DNA of 10,649 nucleotides, taken from the UHGV virus genome UHGV-0292054. One strand, given 5' to 3'. The translations under genes and the position numbers were made by a program. Under the pieces are notes generated by a model. The model was given only the letters and a program-made list of their open reading frames with translations, was not told the DNA's origin and searched no databases. This DNA is from a virus. Positions within the stretch are counted from its first letter, which is position 1; each line of letters opens with the position of its first letter. Below are positions 1 to 10,649 of this stretch, piece by piece.

Positions 1-855
1 TCAGCAGTTCGTCATCAGGGCGTCACCGCCACCACCGGTGGCCTTGCTGCGGCGCTGCTGGGTCAGACTTTCGGTGTGGTCGAGACTGTTTTTCAGGCGG
101 GTGAATGCCTGACTGGTTTCATCCGCCCTGTCAGTCACATCCTGCTTAAGTGCGGAAAAGGCGGTTTCCATCTCAGCGAGTCGCTGCTCAGTGGCGCTCA
201 GCTTTTCCTGCACATGTTCAGCAACAGCGGTCACCGCTTCATGCACGTCATTCAGACGGGCGTCATCGCTGGCCTGTTTGCGGCCAAAAATGGATTTCAC
301 CTTTTCGGTCAGGGCGGTGAACACGGTTTCAGGCAGGTCTTCAAATTCCAGCTCAACAGGCGTTGCCACTGAAATCAGGTTTTCAGGGCTTAATTTGAAG
401 CGGTTCAGGGGGTTGTGTTTTGCCGTGCGGCAGAATTCCAGGTATTCCGTGCCGAGGCTTGCCGGGTCATCGGTGACGGCCAGCCCCACCAGATAACATT
501 TGCCGGTGTTGGCAAAGTTCGGCTGAATTTCCATTGAGGTATAGACCTTCTGCGCGGCCTTGTTCATCGCGATAAGGTCATCGGTCGGGGTGATTTTCGC
601 AAACAGCGCCCATTTGCCTTTCAGCGCCGAATCATCGTCAATCTTTTCGGCCTTCAGTTCGGCCACATCGCCATAACGTTTAAAAATGCCGTCAGGCAGG
701 ATGCCGCGCAGATGTTCCAGGTTAATACGGCAACCATAGACTCGCGGGTCAAAGGTTTCGGCCATTTCCTGAATATCCTGCGCACTGATGACACGCCCGT
801 CACAGGTGTCACCCTCAACGCCGATACGAAAGAATTTTGAGACTTTTTTAGCCAT
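1..855 (-). CDS. O: Capsid scaffolding protein GpO (P2-like), full length, 284 aa
   Basis: ORF track 1..921 minus; the product from the internal ATG at 855 (MAKKVSKFFRIGVEGDTCDGR...) matches my recollection of P2 gpO in sequence and length. The TTG/GTG-extended start at 921 was rejected. Stop codon is at 1..3. Divergent from P as in P2. Confidence 0.88.
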   Translation of the reverse strand: MAKKVSKFFRIGVEGDTCDGRVISAQDIQEMAETFDPRVYGCRINLEHLRGILPDGIFKRYGDVAELKAEKIDDDSALKGKWALFAKITPTDDLIAMNKAAQKVYTSMEIQPNFANTGKCYLVGLAVTDDPASLGTEYLEFCRTAKHNPLNRFKLSPENLISVATPVELEFEDLPETVFTALTEKVKSIFGRKQASDDARLNDVHEAVTAVAEHVQEKLSATEQRLAEMETAFSALKQDVTDRADETSQAFTRLKNSLDHTESLTQQRRSKATGGGGDALMTNC

Positions 856-1028
856 TGTCAGGAGTCCTGAATAGTGAGTAGAGGAGTCACATGTCGGCAT
901 CAGTTTCCCGACGATGCGCATCCTCCGCCATCAGTCCCGGATGGCTTATCACTGACACAACAGCACCTTAGCGAATCGCGGGGCGCGACTCAGTAGCCTT
1001 GCCGTGTATTCATCACGGCGAGGTATTC
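856..1028. promoter_or_regulatory. Divergent intergenic region between O and P, expected to carry the Ogr-dependent late promoters
   Basis: 173-bp spacer between divergent late genes, same arrangement as the P2 O/P promoter region. I could not find clean TGT-N12-ACA activator dyads by eye, so the call is positional only. Confidence 0.35.
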
Positions 1029-2801
1029 ATGACCATCACCACAGACACCACTCTTTTACACGACCCGCGTCGTCAGGCGGCGCTGCTGTACTGGCAGGGG
1101 TTTTCCGTGCCGCAGATTGCCGCCATGTTGCAGATGAAACGCCCGACGGTGCAGAGCTGGAAACAGCGCGACGGCTGGGACAGCGTTGCCCCCATCAGCC
1201 GTGTCGAAATGAGCCTGGAAGCGCGGCTGACCCAGCTCATCATCAAACCGCAGAAAACCGGCGGTGACTTCAAGGAAATTGACCTGCTGGGACGCCAGAT
1301 TGAACGACTGGCACGGGTAAATCGCTACAGCCAGACCGGCAACGAGGCAGACCTTAATCCGAACGTCGCTAACCGCAACAAAGGCGGGCGTCGCAAACCG
1401 AAAAAGAATTTTTTCAGTGACGAAGCCATCGAAAAGCTGGAGCAGATTTTCTTTGAGCAGTCTTTCGACTATCAGTTGCACTGGTATCGCGCCGGGCTTG
1501 AGCACCGCATCCGCGATATCCTGAAATCCCGCCAGATTGGCGCGACGTTTTATTTTTCCCGCGAGGCACTGCTGCGCGCCCTGAAAACCGGTCATAACCA
1601 GATTTTTCTGTCGGCCAGTAAAACGCAGGCGTATGTGTTCCGCGAATACATCATCGCCTTTGCCCGTCTGGTGGACGTTGACCTTACCGGTGACCCGATT
1701 GTCCTGGGCAATAACGGCGCAAAACTGATTTTTCTCGGCACCAACTCCAACACCGCGCAGAGCCATAACGGCGACCTGTACGTCGATGAGATTTTCTGGA
1801 TCCCGAATTTTCAGGTACTGCGTAAGGTGGCATCAGGTATGGCCTCACAGAGTCACCTGCGCTCGACCTATTTCTCCACCCCGTCCACGCTGGCGCACGA
1901 CGCCTACCCGTTCTGGTCAGGTGAACTGTTCAACCGGGGACGTGCCAGCGCCGCCGAACGTGTGGAAATCGACGTCAGTCATAACGCCCTTGCCGGGGGG
2001 CTTCTCTGTGCGGACGGCCAGTGGCGGCAGATTGTCACCATTGAGGACGCCCTGAAAGGTGGCTGCACGCTGTTCGACATTGAGCAGCTCAAACGTGAAA
2101 ACAGCGCCGACGATTTTAAAAACCTGTTCATGTGTGAATTTGTTGACGACAAGGCGTCGGTGTTCCCGTTCGAGGAGCTGCAACGCTGCATGGTCGACAC
2201 GCTGGAAGAATGGGAAGACTATGCGCCGTTTGCCGCCAATCCGTTCGGCTCCCGCCCGGTATGGATTGGTTACGACCCGTCACACCGTGGCGACAGTGCC
2301 GGATGCGTGGTGCTGGCACCGCCGGTGGTGGCCGGTGGCAAATTCAGAATACTTGAGCGTCACCAGTGGAAAGGCATGGACTTTGCCACCCAGGCTGAAT
2401 CCATCCGCAAACTCACCGAAAAATACAACGTCGAATACATCGGAATTGATGCCACCGGCCTCGGTGTCGGCGTGTTCCAGCTCGTGCGCTCGTTCTATCC
2501 CGCCGCGCGTGATATCCGCTACACGCCGGAAATGAAAACCGCAATGGTGCTCAAGGCAAAAGACGTCATCCGCCGTGGCTGTCTGGAATACGACGTCAGC
2601 GCCACCGACATCACCAGCTCGTTTATGGCTATCCGCAAGACCATGACCAGCAGCGGACGCAGCGCCACCTATGAGGCCAACCGCAGCGAGGAAGCCAGCC
2701 ACGCCGACCTCGCCTGGGCGACCATGCACGCCCTGTTAAATGAGCCACTCACCGCCGGTATCAGCACCCCGCTGACATCCACCATTCTGGAGTTTTACTG
2801 A
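1029..2801 (+). CDS. P: Terminase large (ATPase) subunit GpP, 590 aa
   Basis: ORF track 999..2801 begins at a TTG; ATG at 1029 is preceded by GAGGT 5 nt upstream. Product MTITTDTTLLHDPRRQAALLYWQGFSVPQIAAM... matches P2 gpP in sequence and length. Stop TGA overlaps the Q start. Confidence 0.9.
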   Translation: MTITTDTTLLHDPRRQAALLYWQGFSVPQIAAMLQMKRPTVQSWKQRDGWDSVAPISRVEMSLEARLTQLIIKPQKTGGDFKEIDLLGRQIERLARVNRYSQTGNEADLNPNVANRNKGGRRKPKKNFFSDEAIEKLEQIFFEQSFDYQLHWYRAGLEHRIRDILKSRQIGATFYFSREALLRALKTGHNQIFLSASKTQAYVFREYIIAFARLVDVDLTGDPIVLGNNGAKLIFLGTNSNTAQSHNGDLYVDEIFWIPNFQVLRKVASGMASQSHLRSTYFSTPSTLAHDAYPFWSGELFNRGRASAAERVEIDVSHNALAGGLLCADGQWRQIVTIEDALKGGCTLFDIEQLKRENSADDFKNLFMCEFVDDKASVFPFEELQRCMVDTLEEWEDYAPFAANPFGSRPVWIGYDPSHRGDSAGCVVLAPPVVAGGKFRILERHQWKGMDFATQAESIRKLTEKYNVEYIGIDATGLGVGVFQLVRSFYPAARDIRYTPEMKTAMVLKAKDVIRRGCLEYDVSATDITSSFMAIRKTMTSSGRSATYEANRSEEASHADLAWATMHALLNEPLTAGISTPLTSTILEFY

Positions 2802-3835
2802 TGAGCAAGAAAAAAGGGAAAACACCGCAACCTGCGGCAAAAACAATGACCGCCAGCGCCCCGAAAATGGAAGCATTCACCTTTGGTGAGCCGGTGCCGG
2901 TACTCGACCGCCGTGACATTCTGGATTACGTCGAGTGCATCAGTAACGGCAGATGGTATGAGCCACCGATCAGCTTTACCGGTCTGGCAAAAAGCCTGCG
3001 TGCTGCCGTGCATCACAGCTCACCGATTTACGTCAAACGTAATATTCTGGCCTCGACATTTATCCCGCATCCGTGGCTTTCCCAGCAGGATTTCAGCCGC
3101 TTTGTGCTGGATTTTCTGGTGTTCGGTAATGCGTTTCTGGAAAAGCGTTACAGTACCACCGGTAAGGTCATCAGACTGGAAACCTCACCGGCAAAATATA
3201 CCCGCCGTGGCGTGGAGGAGGATGTTTACTGGTGGGTGCCGTCCTTCAACGAGCCGACACCTTTCACGCCCGGCTCCGTGTTTCATCTGCTGGAGCCGGA
3301 TATTAATCAGGAGCTGTACGGCCTGCCGGAATATCTCAGCGCCCTTAACTCTGCCTGGCTGAATGAGTCAGCCACGCTGTTCCGCCGCAAGTATTACGAA
3401 AACGGCGCACATGCCGGATACATCATGTACGTCACTGATGCCGTGCAGGATCGCAACGATATCGAAATGCTCCGCGAAAACATGGTGAAGTCGAAAGGCC
3501 GCAACAACTTTAAAAATCTGTTTCTCTATGCCCCGCAAGGGAAAGCCGACGGCATTAAAATTATCCCGCTCAGTGAAGTGGCAACGAAGGACGATTTTTT
3601 TAATATCAAAAAAGCCAGCGCCGCAGACCTGCTGGACGCGCACCGCATCCCTTTTCAGTTGATGGGCGGCAAGCCGGAGAACGTCGGGTCGCTGGGTGAT
3701 ATTGAGAAAGTGGCAAAGGTCTTTGTCCGCAATGAGCTTATCCCGTTACAGGACAGGATCCGCGAGATAAACGGCTGGCTCGGTCAGGAGGTCATCCGCT
3801 TTAAAAACTACTCACTGGACACTGACAACGGCTGA
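2801..3835 (+). CDS. Q: Portal (capsid-vertex) protein GpQ, 344 aa
   Basis: ATG at 2801 overlaps the P stop (TGATG), indicating translational coupling. Length and sequence match P2 gpQ. Transcribed toward cos as in P2. Confidence 0.9.
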   Translation: MSKKKGKTPQPAAKTMTASAPKMEAFTFGEPVPVLDRRDILDYVECISNGRWYEPPISFTGLAKSLRAAVHHSSPIYVKRNILASTFIPHPWLSQQDFSRFVLDFLVFGNAFLEKRYSTTGKVIRLETSPAKYTRRGVEEDVYWWVPSFNEPTPFTPGSVFHLLEPDINQELYGLPEYLSALNSAWLNESATLFRRKYYENGAHAGYIMYVTDAVQDRNDIEMLRENMVKSKGRNNFKNLFLYAPQGKADGIKIIPLSEVATKDDFFNIKKASAADLLDAHRIPFQLMGGKPENVGSLGDIEKVAKVFVRNELIPLQDRIREINGWLGQEVIRFKNYSLDTDNG

Positions 3836-3840
3836 ACATC

Positions 3841-3862
3841 GCCGCCTGCGGGCGGCTTTTTT
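3841..3862 (+). terminator. Rho-independent terminator downstream of Q
   Basis: GCCGCC-TGCG-GGCGGC hairpin followed by TTTTTT, 6 nt after the Q stop codon. Confidence 0.6.
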
Positions 3863-4004
3863 ACCCCCCGTCATCACGCCCTCACACGCTCACCACCGCA
3901 CAAAACAGCCCGCAGACACACCAACGCCCCGGCGCACAATCTAAACGCCATCACGACGCGCTCAGACGCTGAAAAAATAAAATCAGCACCACCGCCAGCG
4001 CGCA

Positions 4005-4023
4005 GTGCTTTCCCCGCCTCGCC
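4005..4023. other. P2-type cos site (19-nt cohesive end sequence)
   Basis: gtgctttccccgcctcgcc at 4005..4023 is the reverse complement of GGCGAGGCGGGGAAAGCAC, the P2 cohesive end as I recall it. Its position next to Q and its orientation fit the P2 map. Confidence 0.65.
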
Positions 4024-4169
4024 CGCCCGCTTCATGGGTCGGTTTTAATGCAGTTGCATGAACACCGTCAAACCTAGCTAGCATTGGCAGCAGAAAGCAA
4101 GTGAGCTAGACTAAAGCACATTCAAACTCATGCACCAAATGATGCACGGAAAAAACAGAGAAATCGCGG

Positions 4170-4199
4170 AAAAAGCAAAAAAATAGCACCCAAAGGTGC
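4170..4199 (-). terminator. Putative rho-independent terminator ending the cargo operon (minus strand)
   Basis: GCACC-CAAA-GGTGC hairpin at 4186..4199, followed on the minus strand by a T-rich run (plus-strand aaaagcaaaaaaata at 4170..4185). Lies just downstream of the stop at 4211. Confidence 0.45.
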
Positions 4200-4210
4200 C
4201 ACTTTGATGA

Positions 4211-4783
4211 TTAATTTTTATTGTCGCCAGAAGGTTTATTGTTGCTTTTGAACAAACCACTAACAACAAACCCAACCAATCCCACAATACTCACAGTTGT
4301 GGTTCCCATAAGCGCAATGATAATTGTTTCTGGTGGATCAAAATCTTTTTTCAATACATACATAAATATGACCCAGCCGACAAAACAACACCAAACAATC
4401 ATGAATTGATATGTTTTATCAGCCATAGTTCTACGGAGCTCATTGTCCGTAAGCAGGCCGTCGGTTTCCGCATTTTTTCTTTTGGTTTCTGCCTGTACGC
4501 TTTCAAGGTTAGTGCTTATAGTTTCAACACAGCGACTCAATTCAGCAATTTGAAAATTAAGACTGGATAAATCCAAACGCTGCATGGTCGCAGCATCCTC
4601 TTCTTCCTTTTGCATTTCATCAACAGCGTCCTCAACAGACTCAGGCTCATGAGATTCTTCATCCCAACAGCCCTCATCTCCCAAAGCCGCAGAGGCAGTT
4701 ATCAGATTCTGCTCAGCTTGCTGCAATCGTCTGAGAAGGTCTTTATCAAATTCAGCTGTCACTTTCTTATTATCGTCAGGCAT
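4211..4783 (-). CDS. Hypothetical membrane protein, 190 aa: acidic/coiled-coil-like N-terminal domain plus two C-terminal hydrophobic helices; candidate toxin/effector of the cargo module
   Basis: ATG at 4783..4781. Hydrophobic stretches QFMIVWCCFVGWVIFMYVL and TIIIALMGTTTVSIVGLVGFVVSGLF; acidic segment DEESHEPESVEDAVDEMQKEEED. AT-rich relative to the flanking phage genes. No homologue recalled. Confidence 0.6.
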   Translation of the reverse strand: MPDDNKKVTAEFDKDLLRRLQQAEQNLITASAALGDEGCWDEESHEPESVEDAVDEMQKEEEDAATMQRLDLSSLNFQIAELSRCVETISTNLESVQAETKRKNAETDGLLTDNELRRTMADKTYQFMIVWCCFVGWVIFMYVLKKDFDPPETIIIALMGTTTVSIVGLVGFVVSGLFKSNNKPSGDNKN

Positions 4784-4787
4784 AAAA

Positions 4788-4809
4788 AACCCCGTACATA
4801 GACGGGGTT
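4788..4809 (-). terminator. Intercistronic terminator-like hairpin (possible attenuator) between the two cargo genes
   Basis: Perfect 8-bp stem AACCCCGT / ACGGGGTT with a 6-nt loop, followed on the minus strand by a U-run that ends at the ATG of the downstream gene (4783). The only purine-rich candidate SD (GGGG) is inside the stem. Confidence 0.45.
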
Positions 4810-4823
4810 ATCTTAATTCGGAC

Positions 4824-5294
4824 TCATAGTCCGATGCAATTGCTATCGCCGTGTAGCAGCTTTTGATAGTAATCCTGAATAACGGAATCAGGAATGATAT
4901 CCATACGACTATCCATTGCTTGCTTCCAAGGAGTACCTTCACGATGTGTGAAAGCAGATAAATCCTCAGCGGTATATTTACCGTAAACGTTATAAACGTT
5001 CTGCAGCAACTGCTCAGTCATAGGGTCAAACTCCTGAGAAATTGCCGATGGAACTTGTATTGGTTGTGTTATGGGACTACGGCCATAAACTTTAAGATAG
5101 TTATACAGAACTGGAACCACTGGACCATAACGCCATGCACAAACTGGTGTCGTTAACAAAGGCGTCCCTTTGTAACCCAGATTTATACCATGTGCTATAT
5201 AGGTCAGCTTTTGTGCCTGCATCTGGGTGATTGGCATACCAGCCGCGCAAGCAAGTTCTATAAACTTATTCGCGATGTTCAATGGGCTGTACAT
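4824..5294 (-). CDS. Panacea/DUF4065-like protein, 156 aa (PanA/SocA-type candidate antitoxin or sensor)
   Basis: ATG at 5294 preceded by AAGGAGG 6 nt upstream; the track start at 5345 is a GTG and was rejected. The motif QKLTYIAHG...G.PLL...AWRYGPVVPVLY resembles the conserved core of PF13274 as I remember it. Sits directly upstream of the membrane-protein gene. Confidence 0.55.
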   Translation of the reverse strand: MYSPLNIANKFIELACAAGMPITQMQAQKLTYIAHGINLGYKGTPLLTTPVCAWRYGPVVPVLYNYLKVYGRSPITQPIQVPSAISQEFDPMTEQLLQNVYNVYGKYTAEDLSAFTHREGTPWKQAMDSRMDIIPDSVIQDYYQKLLHGDSNCIGL

Positions 5295-5511
5295 ACTCAA
5301 CCTCCTTTGCTGTCCTCTTATGTCACGAAAAGCAACCGAGAACACTCAATTTTTACCTATACCCGAGCCTTCAAGCCTGGAATTGTAAACGCTATATCTT
5401 AAGCATACTCAACATTGCGCGCGGAGTATAAATTTGATAGTGAGCATACACAATCAATAAACCATATATTTTTATAGAAATATACATTTATAGCATCTTT
5501 CCAGATTAAAG

Positions 5512-5531
5512 TACTGTATATAAAAACAGTA
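5512..5531. promoter_or_regulatory. LexA (SOS) box
   Basis: TACTGTATATAAAAACAGTA has CTGT-N8-ACAG with an AT-rich spacer, 18/20 matches to the consensus TACTGTATATATATACAGTA. Lies between the A stop (5572) and the cargo operon start. Confidence 0.65.
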
Positions 5532-5555
5532 TAATGATTTTTATCACACTTGCAA
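5528..5555 (-). promoter_or_regulatory. Putative sigma70 promoter for the cargo operon (minus strand), overlapped by the LexA box
   Basis: Minus-strand reading gives TTGCAA (5555..5550), a 16-nt spacer, then TATACT (5533..5528). The -10 overlaps the LexA box, the usual layout of SOS-repressed promoters. Confidence 0.4.
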
Positions 5556-5571
5556 CGCTGTTCATTTCAGT

Positions 5572-7754
5572 TTATATGAATCCCGGCCACTCATCAGCGA
5601 CCGGATACGTGAATTTTTTCCCGTCATAATTTACTGTTGCCCCACGCGCCAGCGCCTCAAGCTCCCATCGCTGCGGCCTGATACCGTTCTGAGCAAGGTC
5701 AACGCGGATACGGGTGATTTGCATTCTTTCCGACCGGGTCAGTCTGGCCGATGGTGCAATTTCATGTGGTTTTAACGGGCTTCCGTTTCTTTGCTGACGG
5801 TTTGGTCTTCTCAGGCCGTGTTTTAATGCGCTTCTGAGCGCCCTCACAACCTCCGGGTCATTCCATTCGATAACACCGTCATCAACCAGATTAAGCACTG
5901 CTGCGGCGTGCTCAGAAGGTGTGGGAGCCGGTAACGAAGTATCACCACCGTTGAGCTTTCCACAGTTATTGACAGGACTCCGAGGCGCGGCGATGCCGCT
6001 TTTTAAAGTCAAAGGCTCAACGACCGGAACTTTCGGCACAATGCGCCAGTCCGTCGTTCTGGTGATATGAATATGACGCGCGCCGAGATGCGGCGCGTAA
6101 ATGCCGACCACTCTCTCGACTTCTTCCTCGTACTCGTTAACTTCATCCGACGGGCTACGGGCGACTCTGACAGTCTGGCAATCGCGCGGAACATTTGCCC
6201 CACCCTGCGCACTGATATACAACGCAAAATCGCCACTGTCTGCGGCAGCGCGTGCAGCCTCGACGCGTTCGTCAAACTCATCAGCAATGCTGACGCCCAT
6301 GCAGTAACAGCCGCGGCAGTATCTTTCAGAGGTCTGCCGGTATCGTTATCGAGCTGACCATCCAGTGCATAGCCGTCGATGTTTTTTGAGATGTATTTCG
6401 CGATATACCCCGCAGCACCGCCCCGATTAAGGTGTTTTGCCTGAAAACGGTTTCGCGCTGCTCCTCTTTCGTCGCCATCCTCTTTGAGCGCATAGCGACG
6501 CATGATTTCGATAATCTGGTTACGCTGGCGCGAATTACAAAAAAGCATCATATGCCAGTGCGGCGTTCCGTCGTGGTGTGGCTCGACGACACGCAAACCG
6601 TAGACCTGTAAATCATTATCCTTGAATGCCGTGCGCATCAGGCTCCAGATGCGGCAGAGATAACGCTGCGCATCCTTTGGATTAAATGCCTCATCGTTCC
6701 AGCCGTGATTAAGCTGAACGGTTTTACTTTCGCCTTTTCTGACCTGACGAGTCGGGTGATACTTTGACGGCGCAGTCAGCGTGATAAACATCCCCACATC
6801 ACCCTCTGCGGCGGCGTAACGCTCAATACCGGCAATGGTGTTCATCAGCTCCATCCGGCGAATTTCAGGATTAGAAATACTGCCCATCACCTTACTGATA
6901 AGGTCGATGCGCTCGCCGGTTTCCCTGTTTTCAAGGTCACACGATTTAAGAAATTCCAGATTTGCCTGGCGGCGCGCACGCACATCACGAATGGCGTGTT
7001 TACTGGCATAAGGAGAACGGTCTTTATTGACCTCCCCGACAGCTATCAGTAACGCTTCATGCCAGCGCATACGCTGGCCTTTAAGCTGATGAGTCCACCA
7101 CTCATCGTTAAACAGACGGGCAATGGCAGAATATGCCTGCCTCGTGGTCATCTGCCCTTTACGGTATTTTTTCCAGTAGAGAGGGGAAATATTGAAAGCA
7201 CGTGCAGCGCCAGCAACATGACCATAGAGGTGAGCCTGCGCCTCATCCGTAAACAGCGATTCTTTTTCGCCATGCGCATCCACCCAGGCATCGCAGAGTT
7301 CCTCATACATCATGAAAAGCTGCGATGAGATACGGGCGGCAAACTTTTTCAGCTCCTTGTCATTCATCCCCGGCAGACGCGCATAATGGTCACGCTCTGC
7401 CAGAAACAGCAACGACGCGTCGGTGTTCATTTCATGGCGCTGATTCACACGCTCAATGCGCGGCCATAAACGACGCTGAAAAGTGGATGTGAGAAAATAA
7501 AACCCGTGCACCGGGCTTTTATTGCGCCGGATGTAGTCATAGCGTGAAGTAAACAGCGAGCGCAAAAAGTAAGGCAGGCGGTTAATCGTGGATAAAACAC
7601 CTTGCACCTGACGCATCTCGTCACGTGTAAGGGGTCTTTCGCGCCCGACAGCCTCGCGTGGCGCGTTCCATGCATAAGCACCGGTAAGCGCCTTACCGGT
7701 GCCTGCGGCAAATGCTGACGGAGGGACAAAACGCCCGGAGGCTTTAACGGCCAT
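5572..7754 (-). pseudogene. A: Replication initiation endonuclease gene A (P2 gpA family), interrupted by a frameshift or small deletion near 6295..6310
   Basis: Two overlapping minus-strand ORFs in different frames (6009..7796 and 5572..6300) both match P2 gpA: the N-terminal part MAVKASGRFVPPSAF...AGYIAKYISKNIDGYALDGQLDNDTGRPLKDTAAAVTAWAS and the C-terminal part GVSIADEFDERVEAARAAADSGDF...PGFI. The 93-aa tail of the long ORF is the out-of-frame reading of the C-terminal part. ATG at 7754 chosen over the TTG at 7796. Combined length is about 727 codons against about 761 recalled for P2 A. Confidence 0.7.
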
Positions 7755-8019
7755 ATGAGCCAAAAGCCTCTGAACAACGCTTGCTGAGTTGCTCAACCTG
7801 CACGTTTAAATCAGCAAAAGACTTTGCGCTTCCGGTCAGAATATCGTGATGCATCAGGCCTGAAACGAGCTGGCTTAATTTCGGGTAATAACCAACCACC
7901 GCCAGCCATTCCTGACCGGCGTTTTTACCGCTTTCAGCTCTCTTTTTCTCGTGGAGAATAAACTGAAAGCTGTCACTGGTAACGACATAACGTTCGCCAA
8001 TTTCAATACGAATACTCAT
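7744..8019 (-). CDS. Small early-operon protein, 91 aa (position of P2 orf83)
   Basis: ATG at 8019 overlaps the upstream stop (ATGA); ends 11 nt inside the A start. Typical coupled small ORF of the P2 early operon. Confidence 0.55.
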   Translation of the reverse strand: MSIRIEIGERYVVTSDSFQFILHEKKRAESGKNAGQEWLAVVGYYPKLSQLVSGLMHHDILTGSAKSFADLNVQVEQLSKRCSEAFGSYGR

Positions 8020-10287: not shown

Positions 10288-10533
10288 ATGTCAATTAAGA
10301 AGCTCGATGATGGACGCTATGAAGTGGACATTAGACCTCGCGGTCGCGACGGAAAACGCATCCGCAGGAAATTTGAAAGAAAAGCTGAGGCTGTAGCATT
10401 TGAGCGATACACAATCGCCTACGCCAGCCAGAAAGAATGGGCAGGTCAGCGAGCAGATCGCAGAACTTTGAGTGAGTTGCTGGACATCTGGTGGAAATAT
10501 CACGGGCAAAACCACGAGCATGGAACAAAATAG
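10288..10533 (+). pseudogene. int: Integrase N-terminal fragment (about 81 codons of an expected 337), truncated by IS2
   Basis: ATG at 10288; the track start at 10258 is an upstream ATG. MSIKKLDDGRYEVDIRPRGRDGKRIRRKFERKAEAVAFERY... matches the P2 Int N-terminus. The frame ends at a TAG formed by the first bases of the IS2 end. Confidence 0.8.
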
Positions 10534-10649
10534 ACTGGCCCCCTGAATCTCCAGACAACCAATATCACTTAAATAAGTGATAGTCTTAATACTAGTTTTT
10601 AGACTAGTCATTGGAGAACAGATGATTGATGTCTTAGGGCCGGAGAAAC
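10531..10649 (+). mobile_element. IS2 (IS3 family) left end, continuing beyond the window
   Basis: tagactggccccctgaatctccagacaaccaatatcactta matches the IS2 left inverted repeat as I recall it. About 90 nt later comes ATG ATT GAT GTC TTA GGG CCG GAG AAA, encoding MIDVLGPEK, the start of InsC/OrfA. Confidence 0.8.
10622..10649 (+). CDS. insC: IS2 transposase OrfA (InsC), 5' partial
   Basis: Starts MIDVLGPEK and runs off the window end. Confidence 0.75.

What the first reader, a model, noticed from the sequence alone, without database searches (positions are those of the whole stretch)
4211..5294. Uncharacterised two-gene cargo cassette in the P2 tin/old hotspot: Panacea-like protein plus two-helix membrane protein
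The slot between cos and gene A, where P2 carries tin and old, is a known insertion hotspot for anti-phage systems in P2-like prophages. Here it holds an AT-rich operon of two genes on the minus strand. The first (4824..5294) carries a DUF4065/Panacea-like core (QKLTYIAHG...AWRYGPVVPVLY), a domain family used as antitoxins for many unrelated toxins. The second (4211..4783) has an acidic soluble N-terminal domain and two C-terminal transmembrane helices, an architecture typical of membrane-disrupting toxins or abortive-infection effectors. The order putative antitoxin then toxin and the tight spacing fit a PanAT-like or Abi module. I cannot place the membrane protein in any named family.
Basis: partly seen in the sequence, partly recalled or inferred. 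Interest (0 to 1): 0.85.

Follow-up and report, generated by a model that had tools for sequence, protein, structure and literature searches.

The report
PanAT membrane toxin–antitoxin pair in prophage
The two genes are a real toxin–antitoxin pair of a kind already tested in another E. coli strain (a Panacea-domain antitoxin plus a small membrane-damaging toxin), carried as cargo in the variable slot of a decaying P2-like prophage; whether it protects against phages has not been tested.

Summary
Two minus-strand genes (panA 5294-4824, 156 aa; panT 4783-4211, 190 aa) lie in an AT-rich island between cos and gene A of a P2-like prophage. The first is a Panacea/DUF4065 protein (PF13274, 65 bits, cut-off 25.7). 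The second has an acidic helical N-terminus and a two-helix C-terminal membrane hairpin.

The membrane protein can be placed in a family. It is homologous (44% over the C-terminal 95 residues, E=6e-27) to the toxin encoded beside WP_000287252.1. That protein is the PanA of the E. coli STEC O31 PanAT pair, which Kurata et al. 2022 showed to be a type II TA with a membrane-depolarising, permeabilising toxin (cluster T3). The two PanAs are 46% identical.

A Panacea gene sits directly upstream in all 18 related loci where upstream DNA was available, from Enterobacterales to Alphaproteobacteria. The exact cassette is already listed, untested, as 'DUF4065 + hypothetical' in Rousset et al. 2022's P2-hotspot tables.

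Two details are new. A terminator-like hairpin abuts the panT start codon in all P2-hotspot variants, with compensatory stem changes. The host prophage is defective (gene A has an 85-bp deletion; int is cut by IS2).

Verdict: new member of a known kind. An anti-phage role is plausible but untested.

The parts
5425..5453 (-). Candidate promoter of the cassette: -35 TTGTGT (5453-5448), 17-nt spacer, -10 TATACT (5430-5425). It lies in the only long block of the leader that is conserved with the Buttiauxella locus.
   Evidence: Read from the sequence. The block TGATTG.GTATGC.C..TATCAAATTTATACTCCGCGCGCAA is conserved between the window and L002. This is an inference; the consensus scan instead flagged 5555-5528.
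5301..5306 (-). Shine-Dalgarno AGGAGG, 6 nt upstream of the panA ATG
   Evidence: Sequence; conserved in L002
4824..5294 (-). panA: 156-aa stand-alone Panacea-domain (DUF4065) antitoxin, = WP_000287234.1
   Evidence: PF13274 at 65.1 bits, E=1.4e-17. GPV motif present. 46% identical to the validated PanA WP_000287252.1. RefSeq annotation.
4784..4809 (-). Intercistronic hairpin AACCCCGT-CTATGT-ACGGGGTT (4809-4788) followed by TTTT (4787-4784), directly abutting the panT ATG. Terminator-like; the only purine-rich candidate ribosome-binding stretch (GGGG) lies in its 3' arm.
   Evidence: Terminator scan. Free energy -15.6 kcal/mol, z=-2.77. An equivalent hairpin is present in all P2-hotspot variants (L002, L003, L004, L020/21), with C-G to T-A and T-A to C-G compensatory changes and unrelated loops. 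It is absent from non-P2 loci.
4211..4783 (-). panT: 190-aa membrane toxin candidate, = WP_001112381.1
   Evidence: ORF and RefSeq CDS. 44% identity over 95 aa to the partner of the validated PanA. PHROG 26171, E=1e-135.
4412..4471 (-). panT residues 105-124: conserved juxtamembrane helix (A..G...DN.LR..MA..T), the candidate PanA-binding segment
   Evidence: Invariant or near-invariant columns A105, G109, D113, N114, L116, R117, M120, A121, T124. Its role is inferred from the Bartonella PanT:PanA interface mapped in PMC10440598.
4346..4411 (-). panT TM helix 1 (residues about 125-146)
   Evidence: Hydropathy; AF2 helix with pLDDT 84-87
4250..4327 (-). panT TM helix 2 (residues about 153-178), containing the invariant GLVGFVVSGLF motif
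   Evidence: Hydropathy. Invariant columns 157-180. The motif is retained in Caulobacter, Methylocystis and Niveispirillum homologues.
4180..4205 (-). Terminator-like hairpin plus T-run closing the operon, 5 nt after the panT stop
   Evidence: sequence

Best explanation
The cassette is a type II PanA-PanT toxin-antitoxin module of the membrane-toxin (T3) type, carried as cargo in the cos-proximal variable slot of a P2-like prophage.

Shown here:
- panA encodes a stand-alone Panacea domain protein.
- panT encodes a protein with an acidic, helical and partly disordered cytoplasmic N-terminus, a conserved juxtamembrane helix, and an N-in/C-in two-helix hairpin with an invariant small-residue face (T161, S165, G168, G171, S175/G176).
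- The two genes are co-inherited across Proteobacteria.
- Both are homologous to the E. coli STEC O31 pair.

Taken from the tested homologue (Kurata 2022): PanT alone stops growth by depolarising and permeabilising the inner membrane. PanA neutralises it without needing ClpXP or Lon. Kurata inferred direct binding from pull-downs of five other PanAT pairs, so binding of this pair is not shown.

Inferred:
- PanA binds the cytoplasmic juxtamembrane and N-terminal part of PanT and so prevents insertion or oligomerisation.
- In the P2-borne variants, the terminator-like hairpin that ends at the panT ATG and sequesters the GGGG stretch keeps toxin synthesis well below antitoxin synthesis.
- Loss or inactivation of PanA frees PanT and collapses the membrane potential. 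Candidate triggers are a shut-off of host expression by an infecting phage, a phage cue sensed by Panacea, or loss of the element.
- The biological payoff would then be abortive-infection defence of the lysogen, retention of the prophage, or both.
For: - Panacea domain above Pfam's threshold, with the GPV signature.
- Two TM helices and an acidic N-terminus.
- A Panacea gene lies directly upstream of the membrane gene in all 18 related loci where upstream DNA was available: L002-L004 and L006-L009, L010-L013, L015-L017, L018-L023. L005 starts at a contig end, so its upstream side could not be checked. Some alphaproteobacterial pairs overlap by a few bases.
- PanA and PanT divergence are correlated (r=0.77, Mantel p=2e-4).
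- PanA is 46% identical (E=6e-47) to WP_000287252.1. Kurata's Table 1 lists that accession as the validated E. coli STEC O31 antitoxin of a 'Membrane' toxin (Dataset S1). It occurs in L015-L017 with a 22-nt spacer, as in Dataset S1.
- PanT is 44% identical over 95 aa (E=6e-27) to its partner.
- Kurata's sequencing primer STEC_TOX_ctrl1, reverse-complemented, encodes FVVSGL, the family's invariant motif.
- Depolarisation plus SYTOX uptake for PanT(Esc. col.), and ClpXP/Lon independence of neutralisation: PMC8832971.
- Panacea contacts the region just before the TM segment in the Bartonella pair: PMC10440598.
- The hairpin is conserved with compensatory changes.
Against: - Nothing about this particular pair has been tested: not toxicity, neutralisation, binding or phage phenotype.
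- Homology to the validated toxin covers only the C-terminal half. The N-terminal ~90 residues do not align, so regulation or triggering could differ.
- The sequence of WP_000019185.1 itself was not retrievable. The link runs through its cognate antitoxin accession, the neighbouring accessions WP_000019186/7, the 22-nt spacer and a primer.
- The PanT structure model is only moderately confident overall (mean pLDDT 65, pTM 0.32).
- No PanA:PanT complex could be predicted with the tools.
- The hairpin's effect on expression is inferred. It rests on four distinct sequences.
Confidence: 0.8

Rival explanations
1. Role-level alternative A: the module is primarily an abortive-infection anti-phage system. 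Panacea acts as the sensor of a phage cue and PanT as the membrane effector, so that the P2-like lysogen is protected from other phages.
For: - It occupies the tin/old slot, which Rousset 2022 showed is rich in defence systems. It is listed there among the hotspot arrangements.
- Homologues sit beside an RT gene in an Enterobacter P2 hotspot (L020) and beside type I RM genes in a Providencia prophage (L022).
- Ernits 2023 proposes that Panacea is a sensor domain.
- Membrane effectors are common in Abi systems.
Against: - No PADLOC model matches.
- I found no phage-challenge result for any membrane-type PanAT in the held literature.
- It was not mentioned in the main text of Rousset 2022.
- Location in a hotspot is only circumstantial.
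Confidence: 0.35
2. Role-level alternative B: the module is mainly a selfish addiction or stabilisation element that keeps the prophage, or just itself, in the chromosome, with no dedicated anti-phage role.
For: - In the window the cassette is intact and 100% identical to that of other strains, while the prophage around it has lost gene A function (85-bp frameshifting deletion) and int (IS2 insertion).
- The STEC O31-type copy lies at a prophage remnant or IS junction.
- Kurata 2022 discusses an addiction role for PanATs near transposons and prophages.
Against: - Chromosomal prophages do not segregate like plasmids, so post-segregational killing gives little benefit.
- The cassette is rare (11 of 5,426 complete genomes), which argues against strong drive.
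- Persistence in one decayed prophage is a single anecdote.
Confidence: 0.3
3. The membrane protein is not a toxin. It would be a benign prophage membrane factor, for example superinfection exclusion at the inner membrane or a lysis-timing protein, and the Panacea protein would be a regulator or chaperone for it.
For: - Small two-TM prophage proteins often act in exclusion or lysis.
- L018 and L022 place homologues near holin and lysis genes.
- The N-terminal domain is long and variable, unlike minimal pore peptides.
Against: - The homologous E. coli protein is toxic and permeabilises the membrane when expressed alone.
- The strict pairing with Panacea and the expression-limiting hairpin fit a dangerous product.
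- There is no similarity to known holin or Sie families in Pfam or PHROGs.
Confidence: 0.07
4. A SocAB-like type VI system: the Panacea protein is a proteolytic adaptor that hands the toxin to ClpXP rather than a binding inhibitor.
For: - Pfam names the domain after SocA.
- The best NCBIfam hit is the SocA antitoxin model (98 bits).
- Homologous pairs occur in Caulobacter (L005, L006).
Against: - The NCBIfam score is far below the equivalog cut-off (98 against 190).
- The partner is a membrane protein, not SocB.
- Kurata 2022 found that PanA neutralisation is independent of ClpXP and Lon.
Confidence: 0.04

Closest known systems
E. coli STEC O31 PanA-PanT (WP_000287252.1 / WP_000019185.1), cluster T3, Kurata et al. 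2022 PNAS (PMC8832971)
   Same: - Stand-alone Panacea antitoxin upstream of a ~180-190 aa protein with a charged N-terminus and a two-helix C-terminal membrane hairpin.
- PanA is 46% identical.
- The PanT C-terminal 95 residues are 44% identical, with the identical GLVGFVVSGLFKS motif.
- Both are prophage-associated in E. coli.
   Different: - The N-terminal ~90 residues of the toxin do not align.
- The spacer is 40 nt with a terminator-like hairpin, instead of 22 nt with an ordinary ribosome-binding site.
- The location is the P2 cos-proximal hotspot, rather than a prophage remnant near zur/dinF/lexA.
- The window's pair is untested.
Bartonella choladocola (apis) PanT(D11/T12):PanA, Kurata 2022 and Ernits 2023 (PMC10440598)
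   Same: - Stand-alone Panacea neutralising a small membrane toxin with a charged N-terminus.
- Panacea is predicted, and supported by mutagenesis, to contact the segment just before the TM region. This is the model used here for the conserved residues 105-124.
   Different: Homology was not established here. A search seeded with an alphaproteobacterial family member returned no Bartonella protein. Kurata only suggests that T3 and T12 may be related.
P2 tin and old, and other P2-hotspot defence systems (Rousset et al. 2022, PMC9122126)
   Same: - Same genomic slot between gene A and cos.
- AT-rich, own-promoter cargo expressed from the prophage.
- Some validated hotspot systems also use transmembrane effectors.
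   Different: - The Pfam and PHROGs hits give only Panacea and unnamed families, not Old or Tin.
- No anti-phage phenotype is reported for this cassette. It appears only as a table entry, 'DUF4065 + hypothetical'.
Caulobacter SocAB (type VI TA)
   Same: The antitoxin carries the same domain family (PF13274).
   Different: - Below the SocA equivalog threshold.
- The toxin is unrelated to SocB.
- The mechanism expected here is neutralisation without protease delivery.
Small membrane-depolarising TA toxins (HokB, TisB; type I)
   Same: The expected end effect is the same: inner-membrane depolarisation and a general metabolic shutdown (HokB was used as the comparator).
   Different: - Those are ~30-50 aa single-helix peptides controlled by antisense RNA. 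No Rfam RNA is detected in the locus.
- Here the toxin is a 190-aa two-TM protein controlled by a protein antitoxin.

Membership tests
PanAT type II toxin-antitoxin systems (Kurata 2022) | Antitoxin carries the Panacea/DUF4065 domain (PF13274) above threshold | tested here: met
   65.1 bits, E=1.4e-17, cut-off 25.7; profile positions 2-113 of 113 covered
PanAT type II toxin-antitoxin systems (Kurata 2022) | GPV signature motif of Panacea, critical for neutralisation | tested here: met
   AWRYGPVVP at residues 52-60; the motif is described in PMC8832971
PanAT type II toxin-antitoxin systems (Kurata 2022) | Conserved two-gene architecture with the same partner across distant genomes | tested here: met
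   A Panacea gene lies directly upstream of the homologous membrane gene in all 18 related loci with upstream DNA (L002-L004, L006-L013, L015-L018, L020-L022; L005 is cut at a contig end, and L019 and L023 repeat L018 and L022).. Mantel r=0.77, p=2e-4.
PanAT type II toxin-antitoxin systems (Kurata 2022) | Toxin arrests growth and the cognate PanA neutralises it, with complex formation | not testable with these tools
   Needs co-expression and pull-down. Toxicity and neutralisation are shown only for the 44-46% identical STEC O31 pair; its complex formation was not in the passage read.
T3-type PanT membrane toxins | Sequence homology to the validated PanT(Esc. col.) | tested here: met
   E=6e-27, 44% over 95 aa, to the protein encoded next to WP_000287252.1 (WP_000019186/7, WP_000089360, WP_053878051). 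WP_000019185.1 itself was not retrieved. A primer from the paper encodes FVVSGL.
T3-type PanT membrane toxins | [quoted passage not shown] | tested here: met
   Net charge -18 over residues 1-122; TM helices 125-146 and 153-178; AF2 helical hairpin
T3-type PanT membrane toxins | Depolarises and permeabilises the inner membrane | not testable with these tools
   Needs a DiSC3(5)/SYTOX Green assay, as in PMC8832971 Fig. 5
SocAB type VI TA | SocA equivalog score and a SocB-type toxin partner | tested here: not met
   NF047745 gives 98 bits against a cut-off of 190. The partner is a two-TM protein with no SocB similarity.
DUF2975 (PF11188), the name RefSeq gives the membrane protein | Score above Pfam's gathering threshold | tested here: not met
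   22.1 bits against 27, covering only residues 127-179. The RefSeq name rests on a sub-threshold resemblance between TM segments.
Catalogued anti-phage defence systems (PADLOC-DB v2) | Match to any defence-system protein model | tested here: not met
   No hit for PanA; only a 0.052 E-value chance-level hit for PanT

The most novel reading that the evidence does not exclude
The P2-borne PanAT variants are a genuine abortive-infection defence. The stand-alone Panacea domain would sense a phage cue, and the hypervariable acidic N-terminal domain of PanT would tune which cue releases the pore-forming hairpin. The conserved terminator/RBS-sequestering hairpin would act as a safety catch that is overridden during infection, for example by phage antitermination or altered transcription. 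This would be the first demonstrated biological role and trigger logic for a membrane-type PanAT.
Probability: 0.3. Interest if true: 0.55.

Novelty: new member of a known kind. Interest (0 to 1): 0.3.

Why it matters
PanAT systems are known as toxin-antitoxin pairs, but their natural role and trigger are open questions. Ernits et al. 2023 only hypothesise that Panacea is a sensor. This cassette places a membrane-type PanAT in the best-validated prophage defence hotspot of E. coli, with natural variants in several genera. That makes a direct test of 'PanAT as prophage-encoded phage defence' easy to set up. The conserved hairpin between antitoxin and toxin genes offers a concrete handle on how the toxin is kept low. 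On its own it is an ordinary addition to a described family, not a new kind of system.

Tried and rejected
- PADLOC models: no defence-system match.
- INPHARED phage genomes by megablast: no match to the cassette. It is seen only in bacterial chromosomes as a prophage.
- A 'distant' DNA search with panA in E. coli genomes: only the same 11 genomes. The STEC O31-type locus is too diverged at the DNA level and had to be reached through the protein family.
- PDB sequence search with PanA: nothing at E<=1.
- Rfam scan of 3800-5700: only a sub-threshold PhrS hit (18 bits against 37). This argues against an RNA antitoxin.
- Linking the family to the Bartonella T12 toxin: a search seeded with the Niveispirillum homologue gave 21 hits, none from Bartonella. 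The link is left open.
- Exact matching of Kurata's STEC primers to native loci failed, probably because the constructs were recoded. At the protein level they encode FGGIV (PanA) and FVVSGL (PanT).
- MAFFT alignment of the short hairpin regions came out of register. I therefore compared the per-sequence folds rather than running pair counts.
- The supplement of the 2026 NAR P2/P4 paper is not held, so I could not see whether the cassette was scored there.
- DUF2975 membership (the RefSeq name) was rejected as sub-threshold.
- SocA equivalog membership was rejected.
Full report
**Observation**

The window is a P2-like prophage segment. It holds scaffold gene O (1-921, minus strand), terminase P (999-2801, plus), portal Q (2801-3835, plus) and a GC-rich cos region. 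An AT-rich island follows (GC 0.39-0.44, against 0.52-0.59 around it), and then gene A, several small early genes, cox, C and int.

- panA runs from 5294 to 4824 and encodes 156 aa. It has an AGGAGG ribosome-binding site 6 nt upstream.
- panT runs from 4783 to 4211 and encodes 190 aa.

RefSeq annotates the same two genes (WP_000287234.1 and WP_001112381.1) in the same place in 11 of 5,426 complete E. coli genomes, at 99.5-100% DNA identity.

**The two proteins**

PanA scores 65.1 bits (E=1.4e-17) on Pfam PF13274 SocA_Panacea, well above the 25.7-bit cut-off, and covers the whole profile. It carries the GPV signature (AWRYGPVVP) that Kurata et al. describe as critical for neutralisation. It falls far below NCBIfam's SocA equivalog cut-off (98 against 190 bits). 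It has no relative in the PDB by sequence.

PanT has a net charge of -18 over residues 1-122 (pI 4.2) and two hydrophobic segments at about 125-146 and 153-178. AlphaFold2 on a 25-sequence alignment gives:
- an all-helical model with helix 5-35;
- a disordered acidic stretch (pLDDT below 50 for residues 35-63);
- one long helix 57-145 that runs into TM1;
- a second helix 152-182.

pLDDT is 84-87 for residues 121-170, but only 65 overall. Basic residues flank the hairpin on the N- and C-terminal sides. With no signal peptide, this suggests an N-in/C-in hairpin (inference).

The RefSeq name 'DUF2975' rests on a sub-threshold hit (22.1 against 27 bits) to the TM segment only.

**Is it a unit?**

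The membrane protein has 72 relatives (90%-identity clusters) in the word-indexed protein search, all with named sources from Enterobacterales. A profile search of 1.84 billion representatives found 619 proteins at E<=0.001, mostly 110-200 aa and matching the juxtamembrane-plus-hairpin part.

The alignment shows a hypervariable N-terminal half and a strongly conserved C-terminal half. The conserved half contains the motif A..G...DN.LR..MA..TF.FM..WC.FV, followed by ALLGT.T.SIVGLVGFVVSGLFKS.

A scan of one genome per species found 8 loci. They include Buttiauxella, Pectobacterium, Erwinia, two Caulobacter, Methylocystis and Niveispirillum. In seven of them the gene directly upstream is a Panacea protein (64-90 bits for the six scanned; ORFs). 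The eighth (L005) starts at a contig end, so its upstream side is missing. Several alphaproteobacterial pairs overlap by a few bases. The same pairing holds for the E. coli, Enterobacter and Providencia loci fetched through exact-protein look-ups.

Across 13 pairs, PanA identity and PanT C-terminal identity are correlated (r=0.77, Mantel p=2e-4). The two genes therefore travel and diverge together.

**Placing it among known systems**

Kurata et al. 2022 (PMC8832971) validated nine PanAT pairs. One is from E. coli STEC O31: antitoxin WP_000287252.1 and toxin WP_000019185.1, mode of action 'Membrane', cluster T3, order A|T, 22-nt spacer.

I found WP_000287252.1 annotated in three complete E. coli genomes (L015-L017). 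In each it lies directly upstream, with a 22-nt spacer, of 182-aa proteins WP_000089360.1, WP_000019186.1 and WP_000019187.1. These belong to the P0066 cluster recovered as homologues of the window's PanT.
- The window's PanA is 46% identical to that PanA over its full length (E=6e-47).
- The window's PanT is 44% identical over its C-terminal 95 residues (E=6e-27), with the GLVGFVVSGLFKS block identical.
- The N-terminal halves do not align.

I could not retrieve the sequence of WP_000019185.1 itself. The link rests on four things: its cognate antitoxin accession, the adjacent accession numbers, the matching spacer, and the paper's sequencing primers. Reverse-complemented, those primers encode FGGIV (present in WP_000287252.1) and FVVSGL (the family's invariant motif).

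**Mechanism**

For the STEC O31 homologue, Kurata showed three things:
- expressing the toxin shuts down transcription, translation and replication indiscriminately;
- the toxin depolarises the membrane and lets SYTOX Green in;
- PanA neutralisation does not need ClpXP or Lon.

From pull-downs of five other PanAT pairs, Kurata inferred that PanA neutralises by direct binding. The passage I read does not name the E. coli pair among them.

For the Bartonella membrane-type pair, Ernits et al. 2023 (PMC10440598) predicted that the Panacea core contacts the unstructured N-terminal region and the short helix just before the TM segment. They supported this by mutagenesis.

By analogy, I propose that PanA holds the conserved juxtamembrane helix of PanT (residues ~105-124) and blocks insertion or oligomerisation. 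This step is inferred. The invariant small or polar face of TM2 (T161, S165, G168, G171, S175/G176) is what one would expect of a helix-packing or pore-lining surface. That is also an inference from the sequence.

**A detail not previously described, as far as I could find**

The 40-nt spacer in the window is almost entirely a hairpin, AACCCCGT-CTATGT-ACGGGGTT, followed by TTTT and then the panT ATG. Its free energy is -15.6 kcal/mol, with z=-2.77 against shuffles.

All other P2-hotspot variants have an equivalent hairpin in the same place:
- Buttiauxella L002 is identical;
- Pectobacterium L003 has ACCCCGTA/TACGGGGT;
- Erwinia L004 has AAATCCCGTA/TACGGGATTT;
- Enterobacter L020/L021 have ACCCCGCT/AGCGGGGT.

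The loops are unrelated, and two stem positions change on both sides (C-G to T-A, and T-A to C-G). The non-P2 family members (STEC O31 type, L018, L022) instead have 20-25-nt spacers with ordinary ribosome-binding sites and no hairpin.

There is no room for a promoter after the hairpin, so panT must be read by transcripts that pass it. The only purine-rich stretch before the ATG (GGGG) lies in the 3' arm of the stem. The simplest reading is an attenuator, an RBS-sequestering element, or both, which keeps toxin output below antitoxin output. This is inferred from four distinct sequences and needs experimental testing.

A second terminator-like hairpin (4205-4180) closes the operon.

A candidate promoter lies in the only well-conserved block of the 277-nt leader: -35 TTGTGT (5453-5448) and -10 TATACT (5430-5425).

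**Biological role**

The cassette sits where P2 carries tin and old, a slot that Rousset et al. 2022 showed to be a reservoir of anti-phage systems. That paper's supplementary table lists this exact protein pair as 'DUF4065 + hypothetical' in several genomes. The main text does not mention it at all.

Relatives occupy the same slot in Buttiauxella, Pectobacterium, Erwinia and Enterobacter. In one case the neighbour is a reverse-transcriptase gene. In a Providencia lambdoid prophage the neighbours are type I restriction-modification-like genes.

These locations make an abortive-infection role plausible. However, no PADLOC model matches, and I found no phage-challenge data for membrane-type PanATs in the held literature.

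An addiction or selfish role is equally open. In this window the prophage is defective while panAT is intact:
- Gene A has an 85-bp deletion between two TGACGCC repeats, which splits it into overlapping 595- and 242-aa ORFs.
- int is cut by IS2 at 10531.

**Verdict**

The claim of an uncharacterised and unplaceable system is overstated.
- A 44-46% identical E. coli pair has been tested for toxicity, neutralisation and membrane damage.
- The family (T3) is described.
- The cassette is already catalogued in the P2 hotspot.

This is a new member of a known kind. What remains open, and worth a modest experiment, is whether it defends against phages and what the conserved intercistronic hairpin does.

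Noticed in passing
window 6291-6297 (junction); gene A 5572-7796, minus strand: Gene A (replication endonuclease) carries an 85-bp deletion relative to the otherwise identical prophage in NZ_CP025916 (L001 8199-8283), between two 7-bp direct repeats (TGACGCC). It shifts the frame and splits A into overlapping 595-aa and 242-aa ORFs. The best-matching complete E. coli genomes listed (6 shown of 1,574 matching records) all match in two pieces, that is, without the deletion.
   Followed up: yes
window 10531-10649: The integrase gene is truncated after 81 codons by an IS2 end (TAGACTGGCCCCCTGAATCTCC..., then the start of the transposase ORF MIDVLGPEK). The 119 bases match 'IS3-like element IS2 family transposase' features in thousands of E. 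coli records. Together with the gene A lesion, this makes the prophage defective, while panAT stays intact.
   Followed up: yes
panT residues 1-95 (window 4499-4783), compared with alignment A1: The N-terminal half of the toxin is hypervariable in sequence and length across the family and does not align with the validated STEC O31 toxin. TM2 (GLVGFVVSGLF) is invariant from Enterobacterales to Alphaproteobacteria. This suggests a swappable regulatory or sensing module on a fixed effector.
   Followed up: partly
L020 5964-7724 and L022 5866-8692: Homologous PanAT pairs sit directly beside a reverse-transcriptase gene (RVT_1) in an Enterobacter P2 hotspot, and beside N6_Mtase and Methylase_S (type I RM-like) genes in a Providencia lambdoid prophage. 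They are co-located with likely defence genes.
   Followed up: no
L005, L006 (Caulobacter), L007, L008 (Niveispirillum), L009 (Methylocystis): Shorter versions of the toxin (129-149 aa) with the same TM2 motif occur in Alphaproteobacteria. Where the upstream DNA is present (all but L005), a Panacea gene lies directly upstream, overlapping the toxin gene in several cases. L006 sits among core genes (proA/nadD/rsfS-like neighbours) rather than in an obvious prophage.
   Followed up: partly
window 4211-4783; RefSeq WP_001112381.1: RefSeq names the membrane protein 'DUF2975 domain-containing', but the Pfam score (22.1 bits) is below the gathering threshold (27) and covers only the TM hairpin. The name is probably misleading.
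   Followed up: yes
L002 4454-5005, compared with window 5295-5571: The Buttiauxella P2-like prophage has two extra small ORFs (101 and 81 aa) between gene A and the panAT leader. They are absent from the window, so the hotspot content upstream of the cassette also varies.
   Followed up: no
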